A stretch of DNA of 64,000 bases from positions 17,265 through 81,264 of IMG/VR virus record IMGVR_UViG_3300032011_003203; one strand, given 5' to 3'. Under the pieces are notes generated by a model. It made no database searches. It saw only the letters and a list, made by a program, of their open reading frames with translations, and had not been told where the DNA came from. Shown here in pieces: positions 1 to 64,000 of the stretch. This DNA comes from a virus. The translations under genes were made by a program, and so were the position numbers. Every line of letters starts with the position of its first letter. Position 1 is the stretch's first letter.

Positions 1-3
1 GAG

Positions 4-471
4 TTGATTAGAGTTTTAGATGGAGATACAATCGATTGTTGGATTGATTTGGGTTTCAATTTAAAAGTTAAAAAAAGAATTAGGTATATGGGTATTGATA
101 CTTGGGAAAGTAGAACTCGTGACCTTGAAGAAAAAGCAAAAGGTTTAGAAGCAAAAGCTCGTAATAAAGCATTATTAGAGGCTGGAGTTTTTAAATGTAT
201 TTCACACGGAACTGGTAAGTTCGGTAGAGTGTTAGGTGAAGTTTTTGTATCACCTGAAGTAGTTGGTGAACATATACAAGAGTGTATTGCAAACAACGAC
301 CACGATATTGATTTATCACACGATGGTTGGGTAAGTGTAAATGATATTCTTATTGAAGAAGGTCATGCTTATGATTATCAAGGTGGGAAGAAAAAGGATT
401 TTAAAGCAGAAGCTAAAAAAGAAATAAATGAAGAAAAAGCAAAAGCAGAGGACAACAAAAGAGACATATAA
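4..471 (+). CDS. Staphylococcal-nuclease (SNase/thermonuclease)-like protein, probably 5'-truncated by the window
   Basis: RVLDGDTID, IRYMGIDTWE and GKFGRVLG motifs typical of the SNase fold. Confidence 0.8.
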   Translation: MIRVLDGDTIDCWIDLGFNLKVKKRIRYMGIDTWESRTRDLEEKAKGLEAKARNKALLEAGVFKCISHGTGKFGRVLGEVFVSPEVVGEHIQECIANNDHDIDLSHDGWVSVNDILIEEGHAYDYQGGKKKDFKAEAKKEINEEKAKAEDNKRDI

Positions 472-538
472 AATTGTTGTACCTTATGCTGTAGAAACAA
501 CAACAATGAGTTATAAACAAATAAGCTGGAGTCGTTAA

Positions 539-826
539 ATGGAAGAAACACGATTTATATACTTTACTGCAAAATGGTGTGGGCCATGTCAAACATTTAA
601 ACCTATAATGGAAGGTCTTGAACAAGAAGGCTATCCAATATATTTTCAAGATATTGACGATGACCCTATACTTGCAGAATCGTATCAAATTAAATCAGTA
701 CCTACAATTAAAATTGTGCAAGGTGATAAGGTATTAGAAACTATGGTTGGGATACAAGACCCAAACATTATGGTTGGTAAGTTCCAATTATATGCACCAT
801 TAGATTTTGATTCTGATGAGAGTTAA
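539..826 (+). CDS. Thioredoxin
   Basis: FTAKWCGPC active site and IKSVPT cis-Pro loop; GGAG RBS upstream. Confidence 0.92.
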   Translation: MEETRFIYFTAKWCGPCQTFKPIMEGLEQEGYPIYFQDIDDDPILAESYQIKSVPTIKIVQGDKVLETMVGIQDPNIMVGKFQLYAPLDFDSDES

Positions 827-995
827 AGTAGCATTTGATTATCCTACTATTGAGGGTATGATTTATAAAGATACTATTATAGTATGTGAAGAATCAGAAT
901 TTAATAGTAGGGTACACGATGAAAAAGTAAAAGGTAAGATGGATACTGGTAAGATAGTATGGATACCCAAAAAGTTATTAGCGAGTGGAACATAA
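816..995 (+). CDS. Hypothetical protein
   Basis: Small ORF overlapping both neighbours; ATG at 816 preferred to TTG at 807. Confidence 0.55.
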   Translation: MRVKVAFDYPTIEGMIYKDTIIVCEESEFNSRVHDEKVKGKMDTGKIVWIPKKLLASGT

Positions 996-1554: not shown

Positions 1555-1575
1555 TGGTTTTTAACTATAAACCTT

Positions 1576-1584
1576 ATATTTATA
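1576..1584 (+). promoter_or_regulatory. Putative phage promoter motif ATA(T/C)TTAT(A/T)
   Basis: Same 9-mer precedes at least 11 plus-strand gene starts and both minus-strand genes, in sense orientation. Confidence 0.6.
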
Positions 1585-2358: not shown

Positions 2359-2359
2359 A

Positions 2360-2574: not shown

Positions 2575-2604
2575 ATACTACGCTAATTTGATACTTATTA
2601 CTAT

Positions 2605-11532: not shown

Positions 11533-12312
11533 ATGAAAAAAATACAAATAGAATATTATATAACACTTAATTGTAATTTAGATTGTATTGCGTGTTCTTC
11601 ATTTTCACCATTGGTAAAAAAGAAAACACCACATATAGATTTTGAATATATTAAAAAAGATTTTAAAAAATTATATAAAGTAACAGAAGATGGAGAGAGA
11701 ATATCAGTATTAGTTTTGATGGGTGGAGAACCATTATTGCATCCAAACATAAATCAGATTATTCAATACTTTAGTGAGTTGGGAGTTTCATTGAGAATAG
11801 TTACAAACGGAATATTAATACCAGCAATGGATGATGAGTTCTTTAAGTTGGTTCGTAAATATTCAGTAGAAGTGATTGTATCTATTTATAAAGTATTAAA
11901 ATATGAAAAGGTATTTACAACATTAGATAGTAACAATATACCTTATAGATTATATGACCAAAAAGGAACTTTTGGACATAAGTATCTACATAATGAAAAG
12001 AGAACTCATATAATGGATTGTTGGTATAGAGATAATGTTCATATATTAAAAGATAATAAAATATATACTTGTTCAGAAACTGCATTCTTTAATATATTTG
12101 ATGCAAAATTTAAAGGATTACATAAGTTAAAAATAACTAACGATGATTATATAGATTTGGATGATGTAGAAACTTTTGAAGAGTTGATGAAGTTAAGAAG
12201 TACATCTGTGCCACCACTATGTTACAATTGTGATGGTAGTGAAAAAAGCAAAACAGAATGGGTTCGTTCAGATGGTTCAATAGAAGAATGGTTAAATATA
12301 AAAAGTACTTGA
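11533..12312 (+). CDS. Radical SAM protein with C-terminal SPASM/twitch-like cysteines
   Basis: CNLDCIAC, MGGEPLLHP, IVTNG, IYTC and CYNC. Confidence 0.85.
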   Translation: MKKIQIEYYITLNCNLDCIACSSFSPLVKKKTPHIDFEYIKKDFKKLYKVTEDGERISVLVLMGGEPLLHPNINQIIQYFSELGVSLRIVTNGILIPAMDDEFFKLVRKYSVEVIVSIYKVLKYEKVFTTLDSNNIPYRLYDQKGTFGHKYLHNEKRTHIMDCWYRDNVHILKDNKIYTCSETAFFNIFDAKFKGLHKLKITNDDYIDLDDVETFEELMKLRSTSVPPLCYNCDGSEKSKTEWVRSDGSIEEWLNIKST

Positions 12313-12372: not shown

Positions 12373-12969
12373 ATGAATTTTAATAATATAGCTCGATATT
12401 TATATACGAGTGTGAAAGATGATTCATATGAATCAATTATGGAAAACATAAGAACATATTTTGGAATTGCGTTTATGGCAATCGTTATCTTTAATGGTTT
12501 CGTATGGACAAAGATTTTTGACAATTACAAGAGTTTTCACCAAGAAACATTGGTGAATTTGACGGACGAAAATAAGAAACTAAAAGAGTTAGTTTCTGAA
12601 CATAACCTTGAGGGGATGAATGTGACAGTAACGATGTATCATCCAGTTTCGCAGCAAACAGACTCCACACCGAACATTCTCGCGGATGGAACGCGAATTA
12701 GGATACACAAAGCTAGTGAGTATCGATACATAGCGGTTAGTAGGAATCTTTTAAAGCGATATGGTGGATGGTTGAATTACGGAGATTTCATTTTACTTAA
12801 AGGTACGGATGGCAAAGATGGTATGTACCAAGTAAGAGATACAATGAACCCAAGATTTGTAAATAGAATAGACATATTGGAATCACCAGGTACTAAACCA
12901 TATAAGTTTGATGTAGCACAAATTTCTCGTTTGCCAGAAGAAAGTCTTGTAACATATAATAATAATTAA
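12373..12969 (+). CDS. Membrane-anchored 3D-domain (MltA/RlpA-like) cell-wall protein
   Basis: TM helix, coiled coil, VTVTMY..QTDSTP, IAVSRNL, VRDTMNPRFVNRIDIL; start may be 12439. Confidence 0.75.
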   Translation: MNFNNIARYLYTSVKDDSYESIMENIRTYFGIAFMAIVIFNGFVWTKIFDNYKSFHQETLVNLTDENKKLKELVSEHNLEGMNVTVTMYHPVSQQTDSTPNILADGTRIRIHKASEYRYIAVSRNLLKRYGGWLNYGDFILLKGTDGKDGMYQVRDTMNPRFVNRIDILESPGTKPYKFDVAQISRLPEESLVTYNNN

Positions 12970-12990
12970 AAAATAACAAATAGAGTATAG

Positions 12991-14610
12991 ATGAAAAAAT
13001 GGTTTTATGAGAGAAGTAAATTCTCTGAGTTTAAATCGAATACGACTTATCATAAGTTGTTAAAGATGTCAGTAGAAGAGTTTAATGATTGGGCACGATT
13101 ACTTAGACAAGAAGTTACTACTCAATGGGATGAATACGGAACACCACCCGTAATCGGTAAAGATGAAGATGGTATCATTAAGAAATTCAAAAAACTAAAA
13201 GACAATCCTTGTGATTATTTAATTGAAGATAATACTGGTGATGATGAATCACTTGGTATAATTAAGAACTTCAATAAAGATGCGAGTAGTGTTAATCAGT
13301 TCTTTCCAACAATGTTAAAAACAAAAATCAGTATTGGTGCATCAGCCGATAATGGTTTATCTATCTATGACCACTTTGGTGACCCAGAGTTAGAAGATAA
13401 GTTTGTTCACATTATGCGTAGAGCAGTAAAGAAAGATTCTATGTATAGTTGGAGTAGAAGTATCGTAACTAAGAAAGATGAGAATCCTTTTTGGAATGGT
13501 GAGACTGGTAAAGAATTTATTAAGAATGTTTATGATGGTAAAGTTTCTATTGGTAAATATTCAGATACAAGATTTGTACTTGCAAGAGTAAAGAAAAGTA
13601 CAGTCGGTAATTATGGTACTATGAATGAAGAGTTTAAAGGACACGGAAATGTTTATTTAACTGCAGAGGAAGTACAAGATTGTAAGGATAGTGGTTATTT
13701 AAATGATACACAATTAAGTAACATACCAGATATAGTTTCATCTGAAACAAGTAAGACTGGTAAAGTAACTGAGTTCTTATATCTAATTAGACACTATGAT
13801 AAAACTATTGGAATCTTTCCAAAGATATTACAAGTGTTTAGATTAGCGTGTGGACAACCTGCAGTAAACTTTCCACCACTAACAGCAAAACTTTTGTATG
13901 AAAAATTTACAGACCATATAGATAATCAAGAACAAACATTTCATATCTATGACCCATCAAGTGGTTGGGGTGGTAGAATTTTAGGAGCAATGAGTTCTCG
14001 TAAGAATATACACTATGTTGGTACAGACCCTAATCCAGATAATTTAGGTAGATATCAAGCAGTTGCTGATTTCTATAATAATAATTGTGTTGATGATTTC
14101 TCTGAAAACTTTAATAAGTTTTTTGATGTAGAAAAACAATCAAACACATATGAAGTATTTAGTGATGGTAGTGAATTAATATCTAACAATCCAGCATTTC
14201 AAAAATATAAAGGTAAGTTGGATGTAGTATTTACATCACCACCATATTTTAATCGTGAACAATATTCTCAAGATGAGAACCAGTCGTTCAAGGCCTATGG
14301 TGAGTATCAAGACTGGAGAGATAACTTCTTAGAACCCACATTACGAACCGCTTACGAGTATCTAAAGAATGATAGATATATCCTTTGGAACATCGCAAGT
14401 ATCAAAATAGGTGCAAATACTTATTATGATTTAGAGGGTGATAGTAGAAAAATCTTAGAAGAACTTGGGTGTGAATATAAAGGTAAATTAAAAATGTTAA
14501 TGACAAGAATGATTGGGTTAGACCCATCTAAGACTGGAATTTTAAATTCAGTACAACACGATAATAATGTGTATAAGTTTGAACCAATATTTGTGTACTA
14601 TAAAAGATGA
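12991..14610 (+). CDS. DNA amino-methyltransferase (SPPY type, m4C or m6A)
   Basis: Motif I YDPSSGWGGR, YVGTDPN, motif IV FTSPPYF. Confidence 0.85.
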   Translation: MKKWFYERSKFSEFKSNTTYHKLLKMSVEEFNDWARLLRQEVTTQWDEYGTPPVIGKDEDGIIKKFKKLKDNPCDYLIEDNTGDDESLGIIKNFNKDASSVNQFFPTMLKTKISIGASADNGLSIYDHFGDPELEDKFVHIMRRAVKKDSMYSWSRSIVTKKDENPFWNGETGKEFIKNVYDGKVSIGKYSDTRFVLARVKKSTVGNYGTMNEEFKGHGNVYLTAEEVQDCKDSGYLNDTQLSNIPDIVSSETSKTGKVTEFLYLIRHYDKTIGIFPKILQVFRLACGQPAVNFPPLTAKLLYEKFTDHIDNQEQTFHIYDPSSGWGGRILGAMSSRKNIHYVGTDPNPDNLGRYQAVADFYNNNCVDDFSENFNKFFDVEKQSNTYEVFSDGSELISNNPAFQKYKGKLDVVFTSPPYFNREQYSQDENQSFKAYGEYQDWRDNFLEPTLRTAYEYLKNDRYILWNIASIKIGANTYYDLEGDSRKILEELGCEYKGKLKMLMTRMIGLDPSKTGILNSVQHDNNVYKFEPIFVYYKR

Positions 14611-15293
14611 TAGTAATTAAAGCAAACTCACCAACAGATGCTTGGATAAAATCACACGAGTATCTTTTAGAAAATGGTAACAAAGATGTGATGAATGAAA
14701 GTATTAATATGTCGGTAGAGATAGAAGATAACTTTGATACAGAACCTAAGTTCGATGGATTGTTTAGAGAAATCTTTGGTGATGATAGAATAGATTATGC
14801 AAGTTCAGTTACATTTGTTAAACCAACAGAACATCCTTTTATGGATGAATTACAATTCCAACAAAATGATACTAAAGTAAAGTGGAACAAAACTTATTGG
14901 GGTAGAATGATTAATTGGGATAATAGTTTCAATCAAATAGAACAAGTTATAAAAAGATTAAAAGAACATAAGAATAGTAAAACAATTGCAATGAGTATCT
15001 ACGACCCGAAATCAGATGGTAGAAAAACAATGAGTGGAATGCCTTGTTTATTATCAATAGATTTAAAACCAAGAAAAGATGGATTGTATTTAACAGCATT
15101 CTTTCGTAGTATGAGAATTAGTAAGAGTGGTTATGCTGATTGGGTTGCGTTGTGTGAGATGGCAAAGTTCTTATGTGAACAAGCAGATTTAAAATTAAAA
15201 AGAGTTACAACAATTGGTGGTTCAGTTCATCTTGGTGATATGAATAACGAAAAGAAAAATGTCAAGGAGTTACTTAGTGTGTGGAATAGTTAG
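14607..15293 (+). CDS. Thymidylate-synthase-fold protein, dCMP-hydroxymethylase-like
   Basis: YWGR, NQIEQVI, catalytic PC, FRS, Asp at the TS Asn177 position (GYAD), GSVHL. Confidence 0.75.
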   Translation: MIVIKANSPTDAWIKSHEYLLENGNKDVMNESINMSVEIEDNFDTEPKFDGLFREIFGDDRIDYASSVTFVKPTEHPFMDELQFQQNDTKVKWNKTYWGRMINWDNSFNQIEQVIKRLKEHKNSKTIAMSIYDPKSDGRKTMSGMPCLLSIDLKPRKDGLYLTAFFRSMRISKSGYADWVALCEMAKFLCEQADLKLKRVTTIGGSVHLGDMNNEKKNVKELLSVWNS

Positions 15294-16782
15294 TACGGTC
15301 AATCATAGTGATGAAGTTGTACACGATATGTTACTTCAAATTGAACACAGAGGTAGGGATAATCGAGAGATTTTTGAGAGTGGTAATGTTCACCTGGGCC
15401 ACAATAGATTAAGTATAAATGATGTGAGTGAAGCAGGAAATCAGCCATTTGTTTGGAATGATTATGCACTTGTAGTTAATGGTGAGATATGGAACTATCC
15501 ACAATTAAGAAAAGAATATGAAGAACGAGGTTATACATTTTTTAGTAATAGTGATTCAGAAATAATTTTATATCTATACAAAGAAAATGAATTAAAAAGA
15601 TTAGAGGGTATGTTTAGTTTTGTATTGCATGATACCTTAACTAATGAGTTAGTTGTATCGAGAGATTGGGTTGGTAAGATTCCATTATACATTTATAACA
15701 ATGATACAAATATTTTAATTGCATCTGAAATGAAATCAATATTAAAAATATTACCACAAGCAGAATGTAAGTTTGTTCCAAAAAATTCAGTAGTTAGAAT
15801 AAATACAATTACTGGTTCAGTACATATTGATAAAGATTACTATTTTACTTGGACACCATTTGAGGATAAAGAGTTTGACCAAGATGAGGTTAACAAAAAA
15901 ACTTATGAGTTGTTAGATACTGCAGTAGAGAAAAGATTATTAAGTGATGTTAAGGTTGCAACTTGTTTAAGTGGTGGTATTGATTCAAGTGTAATTACTT
16001 ATTTGTTAAGTAAGAAAGTACCTGATATCGTATCTTATACAGTCAAGTTCGATGAGGATTCAAGAGATTTAATGTTTGCAAGAATGGTTGCAGAACATAT
16101 CAATGTACCATTGGTTGAGGTTGAGATACCAAGAGACCCAGAAGAATTAAAAAGAAAATTTTTAGAAACAATAAAGGTTATAGAATATCCATCAACAGTC
16201 CAAATGGAAGTTGGTATTCTACAAAGTTATGTTGCCGAGAAAATGGCAGAGGATGGTGTTAAGGTTGCGTTTAGTGGTGAGGGTTCTGATGAATCGTATG
16301 GTTCATATGGTACATTCAGAATGTTCAGTAAGAAACCAGATTGGAGTGATGTACGAAAGAAATTATTTGAGAAACAATACTATGGTAATTTACTTCGTGG
16401 GAATAATATCTTTATGAATTATGGAACAATAGAATTAAGATGTCCATTCTTTGATTTAGATTTTTTAGATTACACTACTAACCTTACACAACCAGTATTA
16501 GATAATAGTGGAAACCAATGGAAGAAACCACTTGCTGAAGCATTTCGTGGACACTTACCAGATGAGGTATGTGACCAAGAGAAACGAGCATTTCAAAAAG
16601 GAACAAACTTCAAAGAGTATATAGAAGATGTAATTCTAAATGATACAGATATAAATTTTAAAAATAGAAAAAAACTATTTCATTGTATCGGAGATAACTT
16701 TGAAAGAATATTTGGTTTCAAACATAAAGGTATGAGAGATACTTTATCTGGCACTGAAAATGGATTTGGGAAATGGATATAA
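15277..16782 (+). CDS. Asparagine-synthetase-B-like glutamine amidotransferase
   Basis: GTG start gives MCGI (Ntn nucleophile Cys2); HRGRD, LGHNRLSI, NGEIWN, LSGGIDSS, SGEGSDE, ELRCPFFD. Confidence 0.9.
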   Translation: MCGIVSTVNHSDEVVHDMLLQIEHRGRDNREIFESGNVHLGHNRLSINDVSEAGNQPFVWNDYALVVNGEIWNYPQLRKEYEERGYTFFSNSDSEIILYLYKENELKRLEGMFSFVLHDTLTNELVVSRDWVGKIPLYIYNNDTNILIASEMKSILKILPQAECKFVPKNSVVRINTITGSVHIDKDYYFTWTPFEDKEFDQDEVNKKTYELLDTAVEKRLLSDVKVATCLSGGIDSSVITYLLSKKVPDIVSYTVKFDEDSRDLMFARMVAEHINVPLVEVEIPRDPEELKRKFLETIKVIEYPSTVQMEVGILQSYVAEKMAEDGVKVAFSGEGSDESYGSYGTFRMFSKKPDWSDVRKKLFEKQYYGNLLRGNNIFMNYGTIELRCPFFDLDFLDYTTNLTQPVLDNSGNQWKKPLAEAFRGHLPDEVCDQEKRAFQKGTNFKEYIEDVILNDTDINFKNRKKLFHCIGDNFERIFGFKHKGMRDTLSGTENGFGKWI

Positions 16783-17618
16783 TACAAACACCAATAGAAA
16801 CTTATACATTAAATGGTATCGATGTTGATGTCAAGAGAGATGATTTAGTTGGTGATGGAGTTAACTTTCCACGATGGGCAAAGATAGAGGGTATAAGAAA
16901 AATATTAGAGAGTGATGATATTGATAAATCAAAACCACTAACTCACTTATCAGTTTATGGAAGTTGGACTGGATGGACATTAAGTAAGTTGTGTAAAGAG
17001 TATGGTATAGAATTTATTTCTGCTTATCCAGATACACAAAAGTTTCCACAAGTATTGTTAGAACGAGTAGAGGGTAATGGTGGTAAGTTACATCCGATGA
17101 GACCTAATATGATGGCGTTTATGCAAAACAAATTAAACACACAAGCAAAAGAAAATGGTTGGCAACAATTACCATACGCATTCAATCATCCCGCATACAT
17201 TAGTTATATGGGGGCAAGAATGAGAGAAGTTTTAAAAGATAGGGAATATGATAACCTTGTTGTTAGTATTGGTAGTGGTGTTACTGCAAGTGGATTAATA
17301 AAAGAATTTTTAGAGTACGGAGATGATTGGTGGAAGTTAAATAACGAATCAAGAAAAGTTTATTCTATTACGATGAGTGCATTCTCATCAACAAAAAAGA
17401 TTTTAAATGAGAATCACGCTGGTGATTTGAAAAATATAATACTCGAAAAATCACCATATGCATTTGATGATATGATGGATGATTATAAAGTACCATTTGA
17501 TTGTAATGAATTTTGGGACAAGAAACAATGGTATTGGTTAGAGGATAATATACAGAAACTTAAAGGGAAAACTTTATTTTGGAACATTGGTGGTTCTTAT
17601 TTAAATTCAATAAAATAA
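16773..17618 (+). CDS. PLP-dependent enzyme, fold type II (ACC deaminase/D-Cys desulfhydrase-like)
   Basis: VKRDDL, candidate PLP Lys in WAKI, VVSIGSGVTASG phosphate loop, LFWNIGG. Confidence 0.75.
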   Translation: MDIIQTPIETYTLNGIDVDVKRDDLVGDGVNFPRWAKIEGIRKILESDDIDKSKPLTHLSVYGSWTGWTLSKLCKEYGIEFISAYPDTQKFPQVLLERVEGNGGKLHPMRPNMMAFMQNKLNTQAKENGWQQLPYAFNHPAYISYMGARMREVLKDREYDNLVVSIGSGVTASGLIKEFLEYGDDWWKLNNESRKVYSITMSAFSSTKKILNENHAGDLKNIILEKSPYAFDDMMDDYKVPFDCNEFWDKKQWYWLEDNIQKLKGKTLFWNIGGSYLNSIK

Positions 17619-17627
17619 AAAAAACAC

Positions 17628-17657
17628 TTGACTTGTATAGGCAAAAAGCCTTATATT
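17628..17657 (+). promoter_or_regulatory. Sigma70-type early promoter TTGACT-N18-TATATT
   Basis: About 37-bp near-identical repeat of the 5225 promoter. Confidence 0.75.
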
Positions 17658-17690
17658 ATGGTCATATTAAATTGGAGATTTAGAAACAAT

Positions 17691-18464
17691 ATGAAAAGTT
17701 TATCAGCAGAAAAAATACAAGAGAACTATAAAACTCTTCGAAATATTATTACGATGACTTTCTCTGGTGAGAGACTAGAGAAATTAAATAAGATGTATGA
17801 TTATTTTGAAGATAGAATGATGTTAGCACCAGCAAGTGCAAAAGAACATTATCACAATGCTATGGTGGGTGGATATGTAGAGCATGTTTTACACATTGTA
17901 GATTTTTCACAATCAGTAAAAAAGTTGTGGGAAGAAAAGGGAGCAGACATTAACTTCACGGATGAAGAATTAATCTTTGCTGCATTACATCACGATTTAG
18001 GTAAGGTAGGTAATTTAGAACACGATTACTATATACCAAATGAATCAGATTGGCATCGTAAGAATCAAGGTAAGATTTATACACATAATCCAGAGTTACC
18101 TTATATGACAGTAACAGATAGAGCATTTTATTTATTACAACACTTCCAAATACCTTTAACAGAAAATGAATATATGGGATTGATGTTAACAGATGGAATG
18201 TATGAAGATGCAAATAAAAAATATTTAATGACCTTCTTACCAGAGACTGGATTGAGAAGTCATATATCACGAATACTACACCAAGCAGATATGATGGCAA
18301 CATTTATCGAATCGGATGAGTGGAAGCGTGGAGATAAAAAAGAGACTAAACGAGTTCTTAAATCAGTAGGTAATATCAAAGATGCCGTTAAGTCAGAAGT
18401 AGAAACTAAACTCACGGGTGAATCACCAAAAGATTTATTTAATGAGTTATTTGGAGATAAGTAA
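17691..18464 (+). CDS. HD-domain phosphohydrolase
   Basis: APAS..HYHNA..GGYVEH, ALHHDLGK, LHQAD; start placed downstream of the promoter. Confidence 0.85.
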   Translation: MKSLSAEKIQENYKTLRNIITMTFSGERLEKLNKMYDYFEDRMMLAPASAKEHYHNAMVGGYVEHVLHIVDFSQSVKKLWEEKGADINFTDEELIFAALHHDLGKVGNLEHDYYIPNESDWHRKNQGKIYTHNPELPYMTVTDRAFYLLQHFQIPLTENEYMGLMLTDGMYEDANKKYLMTFLPETGLRSHISRILHQADMMATFIESDEWKRGDKKETKRVLKSVGNIKDAVKSEVETKLTGESPKDLFNELFGDK

Positions 18465-18724
18465 TGATATTAGAAATATTTGCAGTAGTATGTTTTATAT
18501 TAAGTTTTACACTTGCGTGGACTTCATATAATCAAATACAAAAAGTAGAAAGATTAGAAGAGTGGGTTGAGAACTTCTCAGCTCAAATCATTCTAACACA
18601 ACGAACACTTGATGAATTAGATTCAGAGGGTAAGTTCAAATCCGATGATGAAATCGGAACAGTCTTTACAGCAATTAAAGACACTGTCAATGATTTAAAC
18701 AAAATAACAGAAGAGGATATATAA
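18464..18724 (+). CDS. Membrane-anchored hypothetical protein
   Basis: N-terminal TM helix; coupled start. Confidence 0.6.
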   Translation: MILEIFAVVCFILSFTLAWTSYNQIQKVERLEEWVENFSAQIILTQRTLDELDSEGKFKSDDEIGTVFTAIKDTVNDLNKITEEDI

Positions 18725-19446
18725 TGCCAAGAAAAGCAAAAAAGGGTTCACCACGATATTACTTTCATCAAGGAACTGAAGATGCAATCATTCGCTTGAA
18801 TAAAGAAACTCGTGCTCATATGAAAGAACGAATTTATAATGAACATATTCGTACACCATTTGAGAAACTTGCTGAGAATATAATTCATACATTTAAGTTT
18901 TATTACTTTGATGTTCCAAGTGAGGATGTTAAACACGAAGTGGTTTCATTCTTATATATGAATATTCACAAATTTGCTGAGGGTAAGGGAAAGGCATTTA
19001 GTTATTTCAGTATTGTTGCTAAGAACTATTTGATTCTACACAACAACAATAATTACAAGAAGATGAAACAACACGATAGTGAGGATGTGATGGATTATAA
19101 AAGAGACCCAGTCACAGAACTTCGTGGTAAAGAATCTCGTAGTATGAAGATGGAGTACATCGAACAACTTGCTGATTATTGGAGAAATAATTTAACTACA
19201 GTCTTTAAACGAAAGAAAGATTTGGATGTTGCTAATTCGGTAGTAGAGTTAATTGATATGAGACATAATATCGATAACTTTAATAAGAAAGCATTATACA
19301 TTCTTATTCGTGAAATGACTGGTTCTAATACACAACACATAACTCGTGTAATTAATGTGATGAAGAAACATCATAACAATTTACACAAGGCATATTTAAC
19401 TACTGGCTCGGTTGATACTAAACGAACTGGTAGTTGGTTTGAGTGA
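18724..19446 (+). CDS. Phage RNA polymerase sigma-like factor (gp55-like)
   Basis: KLAENII, HKFAEGKGKAFSYFSIVAKNYL resembles sigma region 2 of T4-like late sigma factors. Confidence 0.65.
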   Translation: MPRKAKKGSPRYYFHQGTEDAIIRLNKETRAHMKERIYNEHIRTPFEKLAENIIHTFKFYYFDVPSEDVKHEVVSFLYMNIHKFAEGKGKAFSYFSIVAKNYLILHNNNNYKKMKQHDSEDVMDYKRDPVTELRGKESRSMKMEYIEQLADYWRNNLTTVFKRKKDLDVANSVVELIDMRHNIDNFNKKALYILIREMTGSNTQHITRVINVMKKHHNNLHKAYLTTGSVDTKRTGSWFE

Positions 19447-61700: not shown

Positions 61701-62721
61701 ATACATCAATGATGCTTCCGATTTTGGTGGTAATAAATATGTATATAATAGTTCAACGCCTGCTTGGGAACAAGTTTGGTTAGATAATTTCCACATTCAT
61801 GTCGACACTGAAGATTTTGCAAAACCATTTTATCAATCTAATACCATCGGTGGAAATTCTTATGGTAATTCTTGGAGAATAACAAGTGGTATGAGAGTTA
61901 TGTTTGTAGCAAACACTTTAGATTGGAAAGTAATGCCAAACATTCAAAAGTTTGAAGGTATTAGACCTAAATTTTATAGTGGATTAAATGTAGGAAACAC
62001 CAATACAGCACACGCAACTTATGAATTATATGTTGCAGGTGATATTGGAGCAACTGGTAATGTTACAGCATATGCTGACTATGTTTGTGATGATTGTGGT
62101 TGGCATCACGCTGCAAAACCACTTGATAATATATGTCCAAGTTGTGGTGGAACAAATGTTAACTATCACGATGATGTAGCATTATTAAAACAAATTATTG
62201 ATACTACTGCAGCACATCCTACTGATATGGAGAAACAATATCAAGCATATGAAAAACTTGCAAAACTTGGGGTGATAGACATAAATATAGATAATCAAGA
62301 TGATAGGTTAGGACTAAGAGAAAAGGATATACAAGTTACTCATAATTTACATGCGTTAAACAATTATTTAATATCAGGTTTAGTTCAAGAACGAAAAAGA
62401 ACTGAGGGATTGGAAGATAGAATTGAAAAGATGGAAACAATTATTAAAACTTTTGGTGGTGAACCAGGTAAAGGAGTTGCCCACAATTTTAAAGATGGGA
62501 AGATTCAACCTTTTAATGGTGATTATTCAAAAGATGATGGTAGGGTTATTAAAATGATAAGAAATAAGGGTGTTAAGGTTTATCATAATTTTAATAAAAT
62601 GAAAGAAAGATATTGGAAGTGGGGACAAAAAGACGATATAATGAAAGAAGATTACAAACAAAATAAAGATGGTAGTGTAAACACAAAAAAACAACCAAAA
62701 CCAAAAATAACGGAGTTATAA
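49732..62721 (+). CDS. Giant (4329 aa) repetitive tail-fibre/adhesin-like virion protein
   Basis: G/S/T-rich beta-repeats; GNIGDF/IGGF/IAGW fibre motifs; several internal repeat families; tip motif LYVAGDIGATGNVTAY followed by a coiled coil. Confidence 0.75.
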   Translation: MAILKRINKYQGLKDIDILVEEVGLTSQYFQVYDFPDQVPQGKSSFLVAGSPFLADNVELKVEIIDAGGNTVYTEAITDYLEGNARRVSVEVYDDVVPGDGFMYIVGELKPNYKQISGLEANQDNITDTQIIDPASFGPGLGAGNIPDEFIEQVNAQNAQDVPEEFQGVYNVRYVRPVFINAALPNSQPIFFYQQPRITVTEVVKPFIEQLAPSGSVVLSGSIEANPAPDLAPLPAPIDPPPGFPKNPAAEGLGKIGQINEIFKSSKKAKANPFRNSGFRSRGRLIRRASPEQDRFSMKIHALEESNETTKDKASSALVGATLKIKSPKIDLVKFPAADFDIPEVFETSVKKVLNEETIVPVDDFYITRKDTKEQIPVPIIADEVAGGGQSEVTMSYTPFPEQSLSATHNRSFADITVANLRTFSGDVYKTKIYGKSQGSLGDFELLHEGTIESPQTLIDPFSPDGFLNIGYFHTQSIVDSYWLVSGGAVTRDDTKILDGVQISGSNYGVSDSVEFTTSGSFSLEKGVPYSITFNAHYFKEDKVKSDGSVGKDFELDVLVDEAALIGGSLDGKYQSVGKVDLDGLTEFEGTIPGIYTTFLTPSDVGPTLKLKFKLNSGRAIINDIVVRPHAETNFNPDFFRVVLPMAYPLPKQPDLYDFLVEFYDVNNNIAETFTIGQNIEFTGAPLNIDGEDNLLSGSMFIGSAQGSGFEMAGVSSAFLRSIGYNGFDKTIAENKGGFLLFSGSIGDRLTASEAYEGVGLEIVDAHTSQDRYLKFRTNPSTFEVVTDQFFLGQAGNSFVSGANGNIEIFSSGTTTLSGSNVDILTPNFYLGGDSNFISGSGGNIEIFNSGTTTLSGSAVDILTPSFFLGGQSAFVSGSGGNVEISSSNFHLTAGGDVTMSGTITATAGNIGDFQIIDGQISGSNITMNATNSTIFKTDQGPGSDSGESFRQLKDEYYIDFTPEDESPDNFHVKFGPNFSVDKDGVLFASGARFEGSITASQGLIGGFTTDSSSFHSAHIFISGSPAVGGAPNDRNMFISSSNFNVKEDGSITGSSARFDGNTDISGTTTIGGNLTVDGTGTIASFGLTETAISSSNDNLILKSTGEITASAAKISGDSVDIDVSQFELDATDVAISSQHASMSLGHDADTNGGVRLVGTNGGSIVMGDNLPANLSDNGIFMSGSGDFNFQGDTSNFIRKIGTAVTIASETFGLDAGSLIISSSMDSGKGVIRLGTSGGPNSPTSTTAGIYMDGGGALNVVGNSTNFLRTDEGSLTVNTDTLDLKTSTLRVSSSNGGVIALGETIPQKLEAAGLFLSGSGQFSFYSSSRGHIVFDGTDFKIASENLTIDTSTLDINTAGGGNIALGSGSPSLTAAGIFLSGSGDFNFMKDANNFIRQSGGTFQIKADTFDLATSTLIIDSAANNGKIALGATPNTSVGGTNKGIYMDGTGDFLVRGDGNNFFKFDASGASIEIKSDTFDLATTTLILDSSTNSGKLALGQTPPSAHNSGNGIYFDGTAKFLIGSASGDHLQYDGDNFDIKVGSLELDASNIEISSTNASMSLGEGNIILDGANNKIKVGKTSNKQVEIVGSSTQGYIATGKTSATSTTAGFWLANNNTDTEFHVGNSSNFLKFDGGDFSIASDQLEVSASTLQISTANVSMSLGHSNDDPFGTLIMKGGSTPTFAMGRGAVSMSLNSGSGIFFDGDGNFRMGDDDGSLSMQNGNFSITGSDVDINVTDLNITSTGFRLSSTNASMSLGTNDQLFMHANSSSPFLSVGQSTKGYGQTGTFLGFVNSVSRPRVSFVGSAGHFKFDTGLDIQTDTFELDANSGDLQISSAHKSMSLNDGTIVFDGPNKKITVGTSNAVTIQGGSTDNFIAMGSKTNFGDEGSGTAGILIGMDSSNPQAEFVKSSTEYIIFDNGVDMKTLNFELDANGGDLQISSAHKSMSLGGEVKLDGTNTKIEVGSSNKITIQGGSTDNFITMGSKTSFTHEGSGTAGILIGMDGSNPQAEFVKSATDYFIFDDGLDIKTTKLELDAGSLQLSNTQNSMSLSPDGSNPIRMVGDGTDAFITMGSKASFGNEGSGTAGIIIGMDGANPQAEFVKNSTNYFIFDDGIDIKTDTFKLDTTNLDIDSSTSRIQIHNGSNEVVRLGEISDSASDLYGLKIYDGSGTASSNTLVKLGGEGNTIAGWTISNTALTGGNMIIRQDGTIESAGFASNVAGSGFRLTAAQGGFLEVENAKIRGTLATAVFEKESVNAVGGQLYVANSTVLTSSAFNPNGIHTAAQTTMSVENVTGFASGEILSLKRVSNTGFSTEYVKVASSSRTDTSSDTNFSGELYVSRGLGNGVAGDSGSLGESPGAAQAYSGSQVIVSTGKLNTGYIRLNANPNDETTPYMDIVERTGSNIYDVQLKARLGDLSGLSSGLLFGETDPGFGLFTENVFLKGAITATTGSITGQLFVNTTDSERLILGVDISGTNDGLHINDNNYWYTTGALKVGSSNYYLQNDSSGNLTLRPKELDIRVGSVDFELSSTQQSMSFADKDILIKKDGSDASITVGGTTSKQITIKGSNTQGYIASGKTSAASLTEGFWIANNNTDAEFHIGDGTSAIKFDDNQLHITSSKFELDVNEGDLQISSQHKSASYGNKAIVIDGSKALISVGTTANKQIFISGSTSQGLIYSGKTSAASTTEGFWLANNNQDIEFVVGDATDFIKFDDNALSLSTRTFELNAGDGDLQISSGHTSMSLADDMILLKAAGNAGSIQVGQHSSNNIMITGSTTAGVIKSGKSSVNDLTSGFYIANDAGTEQFHIGDGTNALKYDGSNLHITASQVNLTGEGVTIDVSTFELEAANVEISSGQASMSVGYDDNLAGGINIAGGATSTIGFGSKASPRMKLSSTATDSFLQIGSPTFANPAQSGILIGSDGGTAEFHIYNAANKKISFDGSDFDIRTTKLYLETTGLKLSGDSGTGTSNYLALGSATSATAGSGIWLDGGGNARFGTATNSDNFIYFNGSTLQIKADDIDISSTAFNLNANGGDLIISSSDHRISLANENIILDGTSTGFMSIGTVTGVTDTGGSNKGFYAEGDGDFITKAAANKYIQFNGGDLDIKTGIFKLDTAKLDIDSSAGGSGSIALGATPPTQYNSGTGFFVDGAGKFLLGNSGGNKVQFDGSTLTVAGTINIISGDLAGVTSNTISGSYPPASASQDLGFATQVVLDSDGMSLKNADASKTLATYGKTAKIFDGLNSNTYVEVGGKGITQVSGSVTGSLLTNGVMSLFGAGAEKAVFSSTGSLFRGDAQNTFTRVDSNGLTIVDNGSVQGTFTNGTINLYGNNGTDRKVTIDSDGFKAYYDSNNYINVNSSTMDIYAGSSTAAASFGTTVTLRGNNSDADKITINSGGIKITEGSATIATFGSNIHLNDGQIYVGVTGSSGDWLEIDSSGIDIMRNNVSVGQWQDSALRLGKVSNEHVTINDAGMKVMDGTTLKAHFGSDIHLNDGQIYVGVTGSDWLEIDSTSIDINRNNVSVGQFTDSAMRIGRLSNEHVIVNDSGMKVMDGTTLKAHFGSDIHLNDGQIYVGVTGSDWLEIDSTSIDIFRNNTSVINLTDSDFRIGAVAKDHTIINNSGLKVMDGTAMRATFGADAHINGGTIYVGVTGSSGDWVEIDSSGIDIMRNNVSTAKFEDSTITLAPNTGAATDDAVVISSTNGVKIYDNSTDYVHLASDGMSVYAGHASNKSAHFGSTISLYSDGALGSHNRTLHITDHGINIGQNTTGPSGANTPSAIINNVSITGAGVRVYGDATNTYADVGSSGLDIVKTGTNVANFGATVRVGEDDNAKSAFRVDGSGNVTVGTGNTTNFQVFADGTVSSSNAIFAKGKITDATAVEGLIQGFVNMKYTSSNASAVAHTAYDWYSSLVKDSAAGAYTQYDNQYLIDIGGGFSSTHSTRAIAVNFMRFDSSFWNDKAIGHIRFPRTGTDAHFGSAQVFFEGGSGGAPYINDASDFGGNKYVYNSSTPAWEQVWLDNFHIHVDTEDFAKPFYQSNTIGGNSYGNSWRITSGMRVMFVANTLDWKVMPNIQKFEGIRPKFYSGLNVGNTNTAHATYELYVAGDIGATGNVTAYADYVCDDCGWHHAAKPLDNICPSCGGTNVNYHDDVALLKQIIDTTAAHPTDMEKQYQAYEKLAKLGVIDINIDNQDDRLGLREKDIQVTHNLHALNNYLISGLVQERKRTEGLEDRIEKMETIIKTFGGEPGKGVAHNFKDGKIQPFNGDYSKDDGRVIKMIRNKGVKVYHNFNKMKERYWKWGQKDDIMKEDYKQNKDGSVNTKKQPKPKITEL
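55340..56090 (+). repeat. Three intragenic copies of a ~90-100-aa module
   Basis: FI(A/T)MGSK..F..EGSGTAGI.IGMD..NPQAEFVK..T.Y.IFD.G.D.KT occurs three times. Confidence 0.85.
59962..60760 (+). repeat. Four tandem intragenic repeats of ~74-76 aa
   Basis: FGS.IHLNDGQIYVGVTGS..DWLEIDS..IDI.RNN.S units starting near 59962, 60190, 60412, 60634. Confidence 0.88.
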
Positions 62722-62722
62722 T

Positions 62723-63151
62723 ATGAGTACAAAGTTTATATATGAAGCTGATATTAATTTAAATATTTTAAATGATACAATACAAGGTGGTGAAATTCAT
62801 TATAAATTTCACGAAGATGTTGATGGTTGGTATTATGATGAAATGAAATGGAAAGGTGGACAATTTAAAATTGACCTTAATGTAAATAAAAATACAACAA
62901 ATCTTAGACATGTATATGATTGGATAAATCTACCTTTATCACAATCAAATTGGTATAATGATTTTGTAAAAACTAATTATAATTTAGCTACTGGTTCATT
63001 TACAATTAAATCACAAGAACCAGATGATTTTAATTCAAGTCTTTTTAAAACCCACGGCGGTGCATTTCCATCAATGTCTACATCACCATATAGTGGACGA
63101 TGGGGATTTGGTTTTGGTAGTGGTTCATTTTCAGTAGTGGAGTATCCATAA
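62723..63151 (+). CDS. Hypothetical protein (fibre-associated)
   Basis: ORF track; starts immediately after the giant gene. Confidence 0.6.
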   Translation: MSTKFIYEADINLNILNDTIQGGEIHYKFHEDVDGWYYDEMKWKGGQFKIDLNVNKNTTNLRHVYDWINLPLSQSNWYNDFVKTNYNLATGSFTIKSQEPDDFNSSLFKTHGGAFPSMSTSPYSGRWGFGFGSGSFSVVEYP

Positions 63152-64000
63152 TGGCAAGAAGTAGTGGAGAAGCTTTGGGTTTGGGACAATTAGGTTATGC
63201 AACAGGCCATAATGCTAATTCAACAACATCAACATCAATGAATACAGTCTCTGGTGGTACTTCAACAGTCTCAATAGATGATTTTGGAATAGATAGTCTT
63301 GATGTAATTGGTGTCGAGGATACAACACCAGATGAGGGTAGTACGATGGCAGTTACTCTTGGGTTTGATGGTAAGGGTAGTTTATTTTTAACCAAGATAG
63401 GTAATCAAACTCGAAACTTTACTTGGGGTGGAACTGCAGGTGGTAGTTATGCAAGTGCAGATTATTCAGCACAATGGACTGCTCCTTCAGTAACTTCTAA
63501 TGCTGCAGGAAATTTAAGTTGTACATTTCACGATGGATTTAATGACCATGTCACAAATTATAATTCTGCACAGACAGTTAACATTACTGTCCAAGAAACA
63601 GGTGGGGGTGGTACTGGTGGTGGTGGTAGTTGTTTTATAGCTGGTACGGAAATATTAATGAGTGATAATACTTGGAAACGAATCGAAACCATAACATTCG
63701 ATGATGTTGTTAAATCAGTTCAAATTCCAACATTACCTGATGCTGATGAATATGCAGTTTATGCTACTTGGCAAGCAACTACACTTAATAATATGGTGAG
63801 TTCATCTGCAGAGGTAGTGTTGAATCAAGGAGATTATTACTATGACCACTATGAAATAATTGATGCAGAAAATAATGTTATAAAAGCAACACACGAACAC
63901 CCGTTATTAATTCAAAGATATCACGATGAAGTAGATGTTGATGGTACAAGTAGAATGATTTATAGATGGGTAAGGGTTCGTGAATTATTAGCAAGTGATA
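63151..64000 (+). CDS. Virion protein with C-terminal Hint domain, truncated by the window end (not in track)
   Basis: ATG 63151 with TAATG coupling and GGAG; frame open to 64000; GGGGTGGGGS linker then CFIAGTEI at 63631 and ATHEHPL. Confidence 0.8.
   Translation, partial: MARSSGEALGLGQLGYATGHNANSTTSTSMNTVSGGTSTVSIDDFGIDSLDVIGVEDTTPDEGSTMAVTLGFDGKGSLFLTKIGNQTRNFTWGGTAGGSYASADYSAQWTAPSVTSNAAGNLSCTFHDGFNDHVTNYNSAQTVNITVQETGGGGTGGGGSCFIAGTEILMSDNTWKRIETITFDDVVKSVQIPTLPDADEYAVYATWQATTLNNMVSSSAEVVLNQGDYYYDHYEIIDAENNVIKATHEHPLLIQRYHDEVDVDGTSRMIYRWVRVRELLASD

What the first reader, a model, noticed from the sequence alone, without database searches (positions are those of the whole stretch)
1..64000. 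Palindromic sites are tolerated only where a C sits in a 5'-GC or 5'-GAC context: footprint of context-specific cytosine modification
Seen (manual read, approximate counts): no GATC anywhere, and Asp codons switch from the usual GAT to GAC before C. All ~29 CATG found are GCATG/CATGC or GACATG/CATGTC (e.g. 364, 585, 62907). All 8 CTAG found are GCTAG/CTAGC or GACTAG (6134, 17773, 60716). Both ACGT found are ACGTC (27886, 49986). All ~60 ACNGT found are GACNGT or ACNGTC (5293, 8643), which forces otherwise rare GTC Val codons after Thr. The single CCGG found is CCGGC (50131). GC-containing palindromes such as TGCA and AGCT are abundant. Established: phages purge host restriction sites, and hemimethylation of a base inside a site usually blocks cutting. 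Inference: this phage modifies C in GC and GAC, so sites overlapping those contexts are protected and kept, while the rest are purged. The base must be the C, because the A of GAC lies outside CATG and CTAG. GATC can never be covered, which explains its absence. The SPPY-type methyltransferase at 12991 and its operon are candidate writers.
Basis: partly seen in the sequence, partly recalled or inferred. Interest (0 to 1): 0.9.

Follow-up and report, generated by a model that had tools for sequence, protein, structure and literature searches.

The report
Context-specific DNA modification footprint, marine phage
This uncultured marine phage has removed every short restriction-type palindrome from its DNA except copies sitting next to a G or GA. 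That is the footprint of a phage-made, sequence-context-specific DNA modification that has not yet been described.

Summary
The 64-kb window has 0 GATC. All 29 CATG, 8 CTAG, 2 ACGT, 63 ACNGT and the single CCGG have G or GA directly 5' of the site's C on at least one strand. Against synonymous-codon shuffles of the 81-kb contig, about 415 sites outside these contexts are expected and 0 are found; control words behave normally. The rule recurs in a 169-kb relative (1 exception in 180) and in dozens of related marine viral contigs. Those contigs avoid different site sets but keep the same context rule, so the protection belongs to the phage.

The best reading is a phage-encoded covalent modification at 5'-GC and 5'-GAC that blocks host restriction enzymes even when present on one strand only.

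- At GAC the protected base is probably the A, not the C.
- The SPPY methyltransferase-fold gene is a reasonable writer candidate but is unproven. Relatives carry a Mom-like GNAT (DruA family) in the same slot, never both, and still show the rule.

The thymidylate-synthase-like, AsnB-like and PLP genes were absent within about 10 kb of the methyltransferase gene in relatives that keep the rule. GCGC and GACGC are avoided although they always contain the context; this is unexplained.

The parts
1..64000 (.). Genome-wide footprint. GATC is absent. CATG, CTAG, ACGT, ACNGT, CCGG (and mostly CASTG) survive only where G or GA precedes the site's C on at least one strand.
   Evidence: Exact counts and contexts are, synonymous-codon shuffles, and codon contexts.
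12991..14610 (+). 539-aa amino-methyltransferase-fold protein (P0001). It has an N-terminal extension of about 260 aa, motif I DPSSGWGGR near residue 321 and motif IV TSPPY at 415-419. It is the lead gene of the variable island and the best, but unproven, candidate writer.
   Evidence: - Pfam PF01555 scores 28.1 bits against a cutoff of 26.7 and covers only half the profile.
- The motifs are read from the translation.
- Motif residues are invariant in 52 relatives.
- The AlphaFold2 model has pLDDT 91.
- Nearest solved folds are tRNA m2G methyltransferases Trm11, TrmN and Trm14, Z 16-17.
- The nearest Atlas clusters are 100% viral; the representative library holds 3774 relatives.
- It is the only recognisable DNA-methyltransferase-like gene in this contig and in the 95%-complete relative G002.
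14607..15293 (+). 228-aa thymidylate-synthase-fold protein whose start overlaps the P0001 stop (ATGA). It is a possible accessory or tailoring enzyme and is not needed for the context rule.
   Evidence: - Pfam PF00303, E 3e-8.
- The closest solved sequence is the CMP 5-hydroxymethylase MilA, which is weak at E 0.05.
- It is absent within about 10 kb of the methyltransferase in rule-obeying relatives such as L095, L101 and L110.
15259..16782 (+). 507-aa AsnB-type glutamine amidotransferase in the same overlapping gene string.
   Evidence: Pfam Asn_synthase E 1.7e-42 and GATase_7 E 1.8e-33. It co-varies with the thymidylate-synthase-like gene across relatives.
16773..17618 (+). 281-aa fold-type II PLP enzyme (threonine-dehydratase-like) in the same gene string.
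   Evidence: PHROG 7093, E 5.9e-25. The Pfam PALP match is weak.
17628..18464 (+). 278-aa HD-domain phosphohydrolase-like protein. It is the conserved right-hand neighbour of the variable island in all island types.
   Evidence: PHROG 28876/5889. The HD domain is seen in the orthologue on L141. Synteny is shown.
12373..12969 (+). 198-aa protein of unknown function. It is the conserved left-hand boundary of the variable island.
   Evidence: No Pfam family. PHROG 21574, function unknown. Synteny with either the methyltransferase or the DruA-like gene downstream is shown.
18724..19446 (+). 240-aa highly conserved protein of undetermined function, used as the marker for the right side of the island. 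At least 594 related stretches exist in viral contigs.
11533..12312 (+). 259-aa radical SAM protein just upstream of the island. It was not found in any fetched relative locus, so it is not part of the conserved system.
   Evidence: Pfam PF04055, E 1.9e-9. No tblastn match in L002-L052 or L072-L151, nor in G002 or G009.

Best explanation
The virion DNA of this uncultured marine myovirus-like phage carries a phage-encoded, post-replicative covalent base modification with a very short context: 5'-GC-3' and 5'-GAC-3' (with its complement 5'-GTC-3').
- At GC the mark sits on the C:G pair. The C is the natural target, probably at its exocyclic N4.
- At GAC the mark more likely sits on the A than on the C.

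One modified strand is enough to block the host's frequent-cutting type II restriction enzymes. Sites that overlap such a context are therefore tolerated. Sites that do not (and GATC, which never can) have been purged by selection, down to synonymous codon choice.

The most likely writer is the lead enzyme of a variable modification island. In this window that is the 539-aa SPPY amino-methyltransferase-fold protein at 12991-14610. In sister lineages a Mom-like GNAT of the DruA family occupies the same position.

The thymidylate-synthase-like, AsnB-like and PLP genes that follow may elaborate or supply the transferred group, but they do not set the context.

Shown: the sequence footprint, its statistics, its recurrence and the gene content. 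Inferred: that a modification exists, its chemistry and its writer.
For: 1. Footprint.
   - 0 of about 415 expected sites lie outside the contexts. Sites inside the contexts are kept at or above expectation, and control words are normal.
   - One-sided contexts suffice (37 one-sided and 8 two-sided CATG).
2. Replication in an independent genome, G002 (169 kb, island proteins 49-86% identical by tblastn).
   - CATG outside the contexts 1 against 198, inside them 105 one-sided against 102.
   - CTAG 0 against 191 and ACGT 0 against 130.
   - CCGG, CASTG and CTNAG are also context-bound.
3. Property of the phage clade, not of one host enzyme. Relatives avoid different motif subsets but with the same context rule.
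   - L002/L035 restrict ACNGT and CTAG but not CATG or ACGT.
   - G002 restricts CATG, CTAG and ACGT but not ACNGT.
   - TGCA, which always contains GC, is not avoided in any of 49 loci (ratio 0.81-1.11).
4. Writer candidates.
   - No C5-methyltransferase, D12 or gamma N6 methyltransferase, or TGT/DpdA was found in G000-G004.
   - The P0001 homologue is the only PF01555 match in G000 and in the 95%-complete G002.
   - Motif I and S416-P-P-Y are invariant.
5. The island slot holds either the methyltransferase (27 loci) or a DruA-family protein (21), never both, and neither in one locus.
   - The DruA-like model has a GNAT fold. Phage Mu Mom is its top hit (Z 8.7, 165 residues aligned, rmsd 3.8), effectively tied with other GNATs.
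   - Mom is a post-replicative, motif-specific (SAS) modifier of the adenine exocyclic amine that protects against restriction (PMC13219725).
6. Fine specificity and strength track island type or clade.
   - GA-CTAG stands at 0.64 of expectation in DruA clade 2 and 0.17 in methyltransferase-type loci.
   - DruA clade 1 favours AG/CG.
   - GCGC is avoided only in methyltransferase-type lineages.
7. A rather than C at GAC. ACNGT in GACT context is 80 against 26 expected, while GACTAG is 2 against 17.1 and GCTAG is 36 against 63.
Against: - No direct chemical or sequencing evidence exists. Only assembled contigs of public runs were available.
- The same core GC rule appears in lineages whose slot enzyme is a non-homologous GNAT. 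If the slot enzymes are the writers, their specificities have converged. A shared, unidentified writer elsewhere would be simpler.
- G009, which lacks the P0001 family, has two ordinary DPPY methyltransferases.
- The nearest solved folds to P0001 are tRNA m2G methyltransferases, not DNA methyltransferases. Its PF01555 match is marginal and partial.
- GCGC, GACGC and, in G000, GAAGAC always contain the contexts yet are avoided.
- ACGT in GAC context is still about 5- to 10-fold depleted.
- TCGAC is not enriched among surviving TCGA, which a G-A*-C adenine mark might predict.
- Cultured phages with distant P0001 homologues (Bacteroides DAC16, Staphylococcus Alsa_2) show no such context rule.
Confidence: 0.6

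Rival explanations
1. A context-specific modification exists, but its writer is a conserved, unrecognised enzyme elsewhere in the genome. This contig is only about 46% of the genome. On this view the island enzymes (the SPPY methyltransferase here, the DruA-like GNAT in relatives) add a second, different mark or serve another counter-defence role.
For: - The core G-C rule is shared by methyltransferase-type and DruA-type lineages whose slot enzymes are unrelated in fold.
- The contig is estimated at 46% complete.
- GCGC avoidance tracks methyltransferase presence, as if the methyltransferase did something additional.
Against: - In the 95%-complete G002 no C5, D12 or gamma-N6 methyltransferase or TGT family was found, and the slot methyltransferase is the only PF01555 match. 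The TET/JBP search proved nothing because its control was silent.
- Strict mutual exclusivity of the methyltransferase and DruA-like genes in one slot suggests equivalent roles.
- Fine specificity differs by island type.
Confidence: 0.2
2. One reading: a single cytosine modification (for example N4-methylcytosine made by the SPPY enzyme) on the C of both GC and GAC.
For: - It is the simplest statement that covers all survivors.
- GA-only CATG and CASTG are at expectation although the A lies outside those sites (14 against 13.8; 20 against 21.2; 7 against 8.6).
- From general knowledge of these enzymes, not tested here, SPPY is the motif IV variant typical of N4-cytosine methyltransferases.
Against: - Within the same genomes GACT protects ACNGT (80 against 26) but GACTAG is purged (2 against 17.1) while GCTAG is kept.
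- In G002, GA-only CTAG is 0 against 17.6 and GA-only CTNAG is 2 against 17.9.
- If the C of GAC carried the same mark as the C of GC, GACTAG should survive as GCTAG does.
Confidence: 0.12
3. The protection comes from a host-encoded promiscuous methyltransferase acting at GC and GAC on replicating phage DNA, and no phage gene is involved.
For: The rule does not depend on which enzyme sits in the phage island.
Against: - More than 130 tolerated sites in half a genome must all be modified in every progeny genome. That calls for a highly expressed dedicated enzyme (inference).
- Fine specificity differs between phage clades.
- A host enzyme that disarms its own restriction systems would be selected against (general reasoning).
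- No dinucleotide-specific enzyme of this kind is known to me in bacteria; only M.CviPI and M.SssI are cited in PMC8256090.
Confidence: 0.05
4. There is no modification. The pattern reflects flank preferences of the host restriction enzymes, or a mutational or repair bias.
For: None specific. CTAG is mildly depleted regardless of context in some relatives (for example L008 and L013), so part of the CTAG deficit is not caused by restriction.
Against: - Five to seven different recognition sequences share the same flank rule. Different lineages apply it to different sites.
- Depletion outside the contexts is absolute and reaches synonymous codon choice.
Confidence: 0.03

Closest known systems
Phage Mu Mom (GNAT fold): N6-carbamoylmethyl-adenine at SAS motifs
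   Same: - It is a post-replicative, phage-encoded mark with a very short motif that covers only a fraction of a base.
- It protects only those restriction sites that overlap the motif (PMC13219725).
- GAC is one of the four SAS words.
- Sister lineages of this phage carry a GNAT-fold protein in the same slot, with Mom as its top structural match.
   Different: - This window encodes no GNAT. Its slot enzyme has a methyltransferase fold.
- The dominant context here is GC, which contains no adenine.
- The chemistry is unknown, and the DruA-like protein matches Mom only at fold level (Z 8.7, 12% identity).
Phage GpC-specific C5-methyltransferase with TET and glycosyltransferase hypermodification (Burke et al. 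2021, PMC8256090); M.CviPI GpC methyltransferase of chlorella virus
   Same: It is a virus-encoded cytosine modification with GpC dinucleotide specificity. The lead enzyme is followed by variable tailoring genes, and a role against restriction is proposed.
   Different: - No PF00145 C5-methyltransferase was found in ten related contigs, including two judged complete or nearly so. No TET/JBP was found in G000-G004, though that control was silent.
- The candidate enzyme is an amino-methyltransferase fold with SPPY.
- There is a second context, GAC.
- The accessory genes differ (thymidylate-synthase-like, AsnB-like, PLP).
Partial, context-dependent thymidine hypermodifications (phages ViI, M6, PhiW-14, SP10) and T-even glucosyl-hydroxymethylcytosine
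   Same: A thymidylate-synthase-family enzyme together with PLP or radical SAM tailoring genes sits in one cluster, and type II restriction is blocked (PMC6449724 and PMC7653180 listed; details from general knowledge).
   Different: - Those systems start from complete replacement at the nucleotide level. Here protection is strictly context-bound and involves the C:G (and possibly A:T) pair.
- The thymidylate-synthase-like gene is dispensable for the rule.
Classical restriction-site avoidance in phages (for example GATC-free Staphylococcus Twort-like phages)
   Same: Host restriction sites are purged completely. GATC is 0 here, as in Staphylococcus phage Alsa_2.
   Different: Here avoidance depends on flanking bases, which plain avoidance does not predict.

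Membership tests
Amino (N6-adenine / N4-cytosine) DNA methyltransferases, PF01555-type | SAM-binding motif I (acidic residue followed by a glycine-rich loop) | tested here: met
   DPSSGWGGR lies at residues 321-329. D321, G325 and R329 are invariant and S323, G327 and G328 are at least 90% conserved in 52 relatives.
Amino (N6-adenine / N4-cytosine) DNA methyltransferases, PF01555-type | Catalytic motif IV (S/D/N)PP(Y/F) | tested here: met
   TSPPYF lies at residues 415-420. S416 is invariant and P417, P418 and Y419 are at least 90% conserved.
Amino (N6-adenine / N4-cytosine) DNA methyltransferases, PF01555-type | Profile match above the curated threshold over the whole domain | tested here: inconclusive
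   The score is 28.1 bits against a cutoff of 26.7, but only profile positions 2-106 of 221 are matched. Motif order here is I then IV, unlike the beta-class order of the profile.
Amino (N6-adenine / N4-cytosine) DNA methyltransferases, PF01555-type | Structural kinship with solved DNA methyltransferases rather than RNA or protein methyltransferases | tested here: inconclusive
   The best matches are tRNA m2G enzymes Trm11, TrmN and Trm14 (Z 15.8-16.9, 176-182 residues aligned, rmsd 2.5-3.0). Generic class I methyltransferases follow at Z 13-15, and no DNA methyltransferase is among the top 50.
Amino (N6-adenine / N4-cytosine) DNA methyltransferases, PF01555-type | Demonstrated methyl transfer to DNA at a defined motif | not testable with these tools
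   This needs expression plus SMRT or nanopore sequencing, or LC-MS.
Phage GpC C5-methyltransferase / TET hypermodification systems | C5-cytosine methyltransferase (PF00145) in the genome | tested here: not met
   There is no match in G000-G004 or G009-G013, which include the 95%-complete G002 and the 100%-complete G001 and G009. The control genomes did give matches.
Phage GpC C5-methyltransferase / TET hypermodification systems | TET/JBP dioxygenase (PF12851) | tested here: inconclusive
   There is no match, but the control search matched nothing anywhere either.
Phage GpC C5-methyltransferase / TET hypermodification systems | GpC target context | tested here: met
   This is inferred from the footprint. 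All four NG flanks protect CATG and CTAG.
Mom-type GNAT DNA hypermodification | GNAT-fold enzyme of the Mom kind encoded by the phage | tested here: not met
   None is present in this window or contig, where the slot holds the methyltransferase-fold gene. Sister lineages carry a DruA-family GNAT instead.
Mom-type GNAT DNA hypermodification | Adenine in an SAS context as the target | tested here: inconclusive
   GAC is an SAS word, and the A of GAC is the better-supported target. However, GC has no adenine, and CAG, CAC and GAG could not be tested.
7-deazaguanine (DpdA) DNA modification | TGT-family transglycosylase | tested here: not met
   PF01702 is absent from G000-G004, and the controls matched in 14 of 14 genomes.
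T-even-type complete cytosine replacement | Protection independent of sequence context | tested here: not met
   Protection is strictly context-bound. A thymidylate-synthase-like gene is present but resembles the CMP hydroxymethylase MilA only weakly.

The most novel reading that the evidence does not exclude
A large, abundant clade of marine phages carries an interchangeable 'exocyclic-amine writer' cassette. It holds either a virus-only SPPY methyltransferase-fold enzyme with thymidylate-synthase-like, AsnB-like and PLP (or dioxygenase) partners, or a Mom-like GNAT of the DruA family. Both would install a previously undescribed mark on the base that follows G (C in GC, A in GAC). If true, this would define a new dinucleotide-level DNA modification. 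It would also assign a biochemical role, as a DNA-base-modifying GNAT, to the DruA family that names type I Druantia defence. In addition, the methyltransferase-fold route with an amidotransferase might converge on a Mom-like amide-bearing adduct rather than a simple methyl group.
Probability: 0.25. Interest if true: 0.9.

Novelty: new variant of a known kind. Interest (0 to 1): 0.78.

Why it matters
- The specificity of an unknown DNA modification (GC plus GAC, effective when present on one strand) can be read from raw sequence alone. This holds for phages that have never been cultured but occur in marine metagenomes from at least 14 studies.
- It nominates two uncharacterised, largely virus-borne enzyme families as short-motif DNA modifiers, and both can be tested by simple heterologous expression.
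- It shows that flank-resolved site avoidance can find partial DNA modifications in metagenomic viral contigs.
- It links the DruA family of Druantia defence to a Mom-like fold.
- Enzymes with two- or three-base specificity are also useful tools for footprinting and epigenomic labelling, as M.CviPI already is.

Tried and rejected
- A nucleotide search of an 8-kb stretch against cultured phages gave no match. PhoH and P0001 protein searches found only distant relatives.
- Cultured phages with distant P0001 homologues showed no context rule. Bacteroides DAC16 (40 kb examined) has none. Staphylococcus Alsa_2 simply lacks GATC and GGNCC. The family as a whole cannot be tied to the rule.
- Public runs holding this DNA are available only as assembled contigs, so no modification signal could be read.
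- Foldseek on the P0001 model returned only generic class I methyltransferases. A sequence search of solved structures returned nothing meaningful for P0001 or for the DruA-like protein.
- The TET/JBP profile search proved nothing because the control matched nowhere.
- TCGAC as a test of adenine marking at GAC showed no enrichment. TCGA depletion is only partial and may not be driven by restriction, so the test is inconclusive.
- The idea that the SAM-supply genes (MetK, MtnN-like, phosphoribosyltransferase) prove heavy methylation was rejected as general evidence. They are specific to this contig and absent from G002 and G009, which also obey the rule.
- The idea that the conserved flanking genes (198-aa and 240-aa proteins) supply specificity has no domain evidence. 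Neither has a Pfam family.
- The giant 4329-aa ORF was checked for methyltransferase or helicase domains, and none was found.
- The Druantia literature held in the library gave no function for DruA.
Full report
**What the window is.**
- The window is bases 17265-81264 of a single 81,264-bp viral contig.
- It is 32% G+C, all long ORFs lie on the + strand, and the coding strand is purine-rich.
- CheckV rates the contig about 46% complete.
- Gene content points to a large tailed phage: a gp25-like baseplate protein, primase, SbcC-like nuclease, PhoH, Hsp20, peptide deformylase and UvdE.
- No cultured phage matches at nucleotide level.
- Near-identical DNA occurs in marine and viral metagenomes of at least 14 studies.
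- Earlier notes of this scan suggest a Bacteroidota host. I did not test that.

**The observation.**
  - GATC is 0.
  - There are 29 CATG, 8 CTAG, 2 ACGT, 63 ACNGT and 1 CCGG.
  - Each has G or GA directly 5' of the site's C on at least one strand.
- The rule holds without exception over the whole contig: 45 CATG, 18 CTAG, 2 ACGT, 72 ACNGT and 1 CCGG.
- The null model was 100 shuffles that permute synonymous codons among all genes, keeping proteins and codon usage.

| Site | Expected outside the contexts | Observed outside |
|---|---|---|
| CATG | 101 | 0 |
| CTAG | 93 | 0 |
| ACGT | 86 | 0 |
| ACNGT | 115 | 0 |
| CCGG | 20 | 0 |

- GATC is expected 217 times against 0 observed.
- Sites inside the contexts are near expectation for CATG (45 against 54) and enriched for ACNGT (72 against 40).
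- Four control words (CAATTG, CCWGG, CTNAG, CANTG) match expectation.
- The effect reaches codon choice.
  - Asp is GAT 1338 to GAC 52 in general, but GAC 85 to GAT 0 before a C.
  - Val after Thr is GTC in 40 of 52 cases, against 36 of 1174 elsewhere.
- CASTG is also largely context-bound.
- Other words that can never carry the context are absent: GAATTC, GGTACC, GGWWCC and TGATCA.

**It is a property of a phage clade.**
- A search with the methyltransferase-fold protein P0001 found 51 related viral loci at 66-94% identity, plus one at 37%.
- One relative, G002, is a 169-kb contig rated 95% complete. I fetched it whole.
  - 112 of 113 CATG, 60 of 60 CTAG and 7 of 7 ACGT obey the rule.
  - Outside the contexts, CATG is 1 against 198 expected, CTAG 0 against 191 and ACGT 0 against 130.
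  - CATG inside the contexts sits at expectation (105 one-sided against 102).
  - ACNGT is not avoided at all in G002.
- Other relatives restrict other subsets.
  - L002/L035 keep CATG and ACGT freely, but all 16 and 17 of their ACNGT and all of their CTAG are in context.
  - L003/L004 have no ACGT, and all their CTAG and ACNGT are in context.
- Different hosts therefore impose different restriction enzymes, while the protecting context stays the same.
- TGCA, which always contains GC, is not avoided in any of 49 loci.
- This is what a phage-borne, context-specific protective mark predicts. It is hard to obtain from enzyme flank preferences or mutation bias.

**Refining the context.**
- All four NG flanks protect. 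GT, GG and GC followed by the site's C do not.
- Protection is weaker where the C is followed by G.
  - ACGT in GAC context is still depleted (2 against 24; 7 against 44).
  - ACNGT in GACG context is 4 against 12.8.
- GCGC and GACGC are avoided although they always contain the contexts. GCGC is 0 against 13 and 2 against 22. GACGC is 0 against 16 and 4 against 28.
- GAC behaves differently from GC.
  - In G002, GA-only CTAG is 0 against 17.6 and GA-only CTNAG is 2 against 17.9. GA-only CATG (20 against 21) and CASTG (7 against 8.6) are kept.
  - In five lineages that avoid both ACNGT and CTAG, ACNGT in GACT context is 80 against 26 expected. GACTAG is 2 against 17.1, and GCTAG is 36 against 63.
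  - The same four bases protect when the A is inside the site and fail when only the C is inside.
- At GAC the protecting group therefore more likely sits on the A.
  - CATG and CASTG would then be blocked from position -1. That is plausible for enzymes that cut at or beyond the site edge. This step is inference.
- A further test with TCGAC was inconclusive.
- About 15% of all cytosines lie in GC or GAC, roughly 48 per kb counting both strands.

**Who writes it.**
- No C5-methyltransferase, D12 or gamma-class N6 methyltransferase, or TGT/DpdA was found in G000-G004. The TET/JBP search was uninformative because its control matched nothing.
- The only PF01555 match in G000 and in G002 is P0001 or its homologue.
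- P0001 has an intact motif I and an invariant SPPY motif IV. Its model is confident (pLDDT 91). Its nearest Atlas clusters are 100% viral, and the representative library holds 3774 relatives.
- However, its nearest solved folds are tRNA m2G methyltransferases (Z 16-17), and the Pfam match is marginal.
- I then searched with the conserved 240-aa neighbour and found at least 594 related stretches. This showed that the stretch between the 198-aa gene and the HD gene is a variable island. Its forms are:
  - methyltransferase, thymidylate-synthase-like, AsnB-like and PLP genes (this phage and G002);
  - methyltransferase plus an AspH-like dioxygenase and two small genes;
  - a more divergent methyltransferase at about 50% identity;
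  - a 392-aa DruA-family protein (PF14236), alone or with a glycosyltransferase;
  - in one locus, an unassigned 500-aa ORF.
- Across all fetched loci the slot holds the methyltransferase in 27, the DruA-like protein in 21, both in 0 and neither in 1.
- The DruA-like model has a GNAT fold, and phage Mu Mom is its top match (Z 8.7, 165 residues, rmsd 3.8). It is effectively tied with other GNATs.
- Mom is the classic post-replicative, motif-specific (SAS) modifier of the adenine exocyclic amine (PMC13219725).

**The complication.** Lineages without the methyltransferase also obey a G-C rule.
- In DruA clade 2, for example, L165 has CTAG 7 in context against 6.6 expected and 0 out of context against 21.6. 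L178 has 10 against 14.7 and 0 against 31.8.
- In DruA clade 1, pooled CATG is 5 in context and 0 out, and CTAG is 32 in context and 11 out, 10 of the 11 coming from the locus with neither enzyme.
- G009 is a 266-kb genome rated complete. It lacks any P0001 homologue.
  - CATG in context is at expectation (186 against 170, and 35 against 40). CATG out of context is halved (169 against 326).
  - G009 does carry two ordinary DPPY methyltransferases.
- So P0001 is not required for the rule. Three readings remain:
  - the two slot enzymes are non-homologous alternatives with convergent context;
  - a shared writer lies elsewhere;
  - less likely, the host does it.
- Several details favour the slot.
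  - GA-CTAG stands at 0.64 of expectation in DruA clade 2 and 0.17 in methyltransferase-type loci.
  - DruA clade 1 favours AG and CG over TG.
  - GCGC is avoided only in methyltransferase-type lineages (pooled 9 against 82, against about expectation in DruA types).
- Relatives that keep the methyltransferase but have no thymidylate-synthase-like, AsnB-like or PLP genes within about 10 kb still have zero out-of-context CTAG. Examples are L095, L101-L103 and L110. These three genes are therefore at most tailoring or supply functions.
- The SAM-supply genes upstream of the window are specific to this contig.

**Verdict.**
- The inference of a phage-encoded, context-specific modification is strong but indirect. 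I put it at about 0.8.
- That the writer is the SPPY enzyme is plausible, at about 0.45.
- That the C is the target at GAC is doubtful.
- The nearest known systems are Mom (SAS adenine) and the phage GpC C5-methyltransferase/TET systems (PMC8256090). This case differs from both in enzyme family and in its two-part context.
- I class it as a new variant of a known kind, with clear and inexpensive experiments to settle it.

Noticed in passing
window 12373-18464; relatives L072-L206: The stretch between the 198-aa gene and the HD gene is a variable island across a very large marine phage clade. It holds either the SPPY methyltransferase-fold gene with differing partner genes or a DruA-family gene, never both. 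One locus (L149 1882-3384) has an unassigned 500-aa ORF instead.
   Followed up: yes
L141 7793-8971 (P0154): A phage DruA-family protein (PF14236, the family that names Druantia DruA) is predicted to have a GNAT fold, with phage Mu Mom as its top structural match. This suggests that DruA proteins may modify DNA bases.
   Followed up: partly
whole contig and relatives: GCGC and GACGC are strongly avoided although they always contain the protecting context. GCGC avoidance is seen only in lineages carrying the methyltransferase, not in DruA-type lineages. This is unexplained.
   Followed up: partly
L001 5201-7570 (upstream of the window): A phosphoribosyltransferase, SAM synthetase and MTA/SAH-nucleosidase-like gene set is present in this contig but absent from the related genomes G002 and G009.
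   Followed up: partly
window 11533-12312: A radical SAM gene next to the island has no counterpart in any fetched relative. It looks like a recent insertion.
   Followed up: partly
window 49732-62721: A 4329-aa ORF has no Pfam family at all. Only short stretches align to G002 and G009.
   Followed up: partly
window 19443-20261: A 272-aa protein has a clear glycosyl hydrolase family 6 domain (E 1.7e-43), which is unusual in a phage. It is present only in the closest relatives.
   Followed up: no
window 27681-32717: A 1678-aa protein in the baseplate/tail region contains a Vint-type Hint domain (residues 310-419).
   Followed up: no
whole contig: Many six-base and asymmetric words are also absent or rare: GAATTC, GGTACC, GGWWCC, CTTAAG, GTATAC, TGATCA, CCTTC, CAGGG and GAAGAC. 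The host therefore seems to have an unusually large restriction repertoire.
   Followed up: partly
L001 1010-3366 and 7573-11968: Carbamoyltransferase, UDP-glucose dehydrogenase-like, GT25 glycosyltransferase and sulfotransferase genes are mostly specific to this contig. Whether they act on the cell surface or on DNA is unknown.
   Followed up: no
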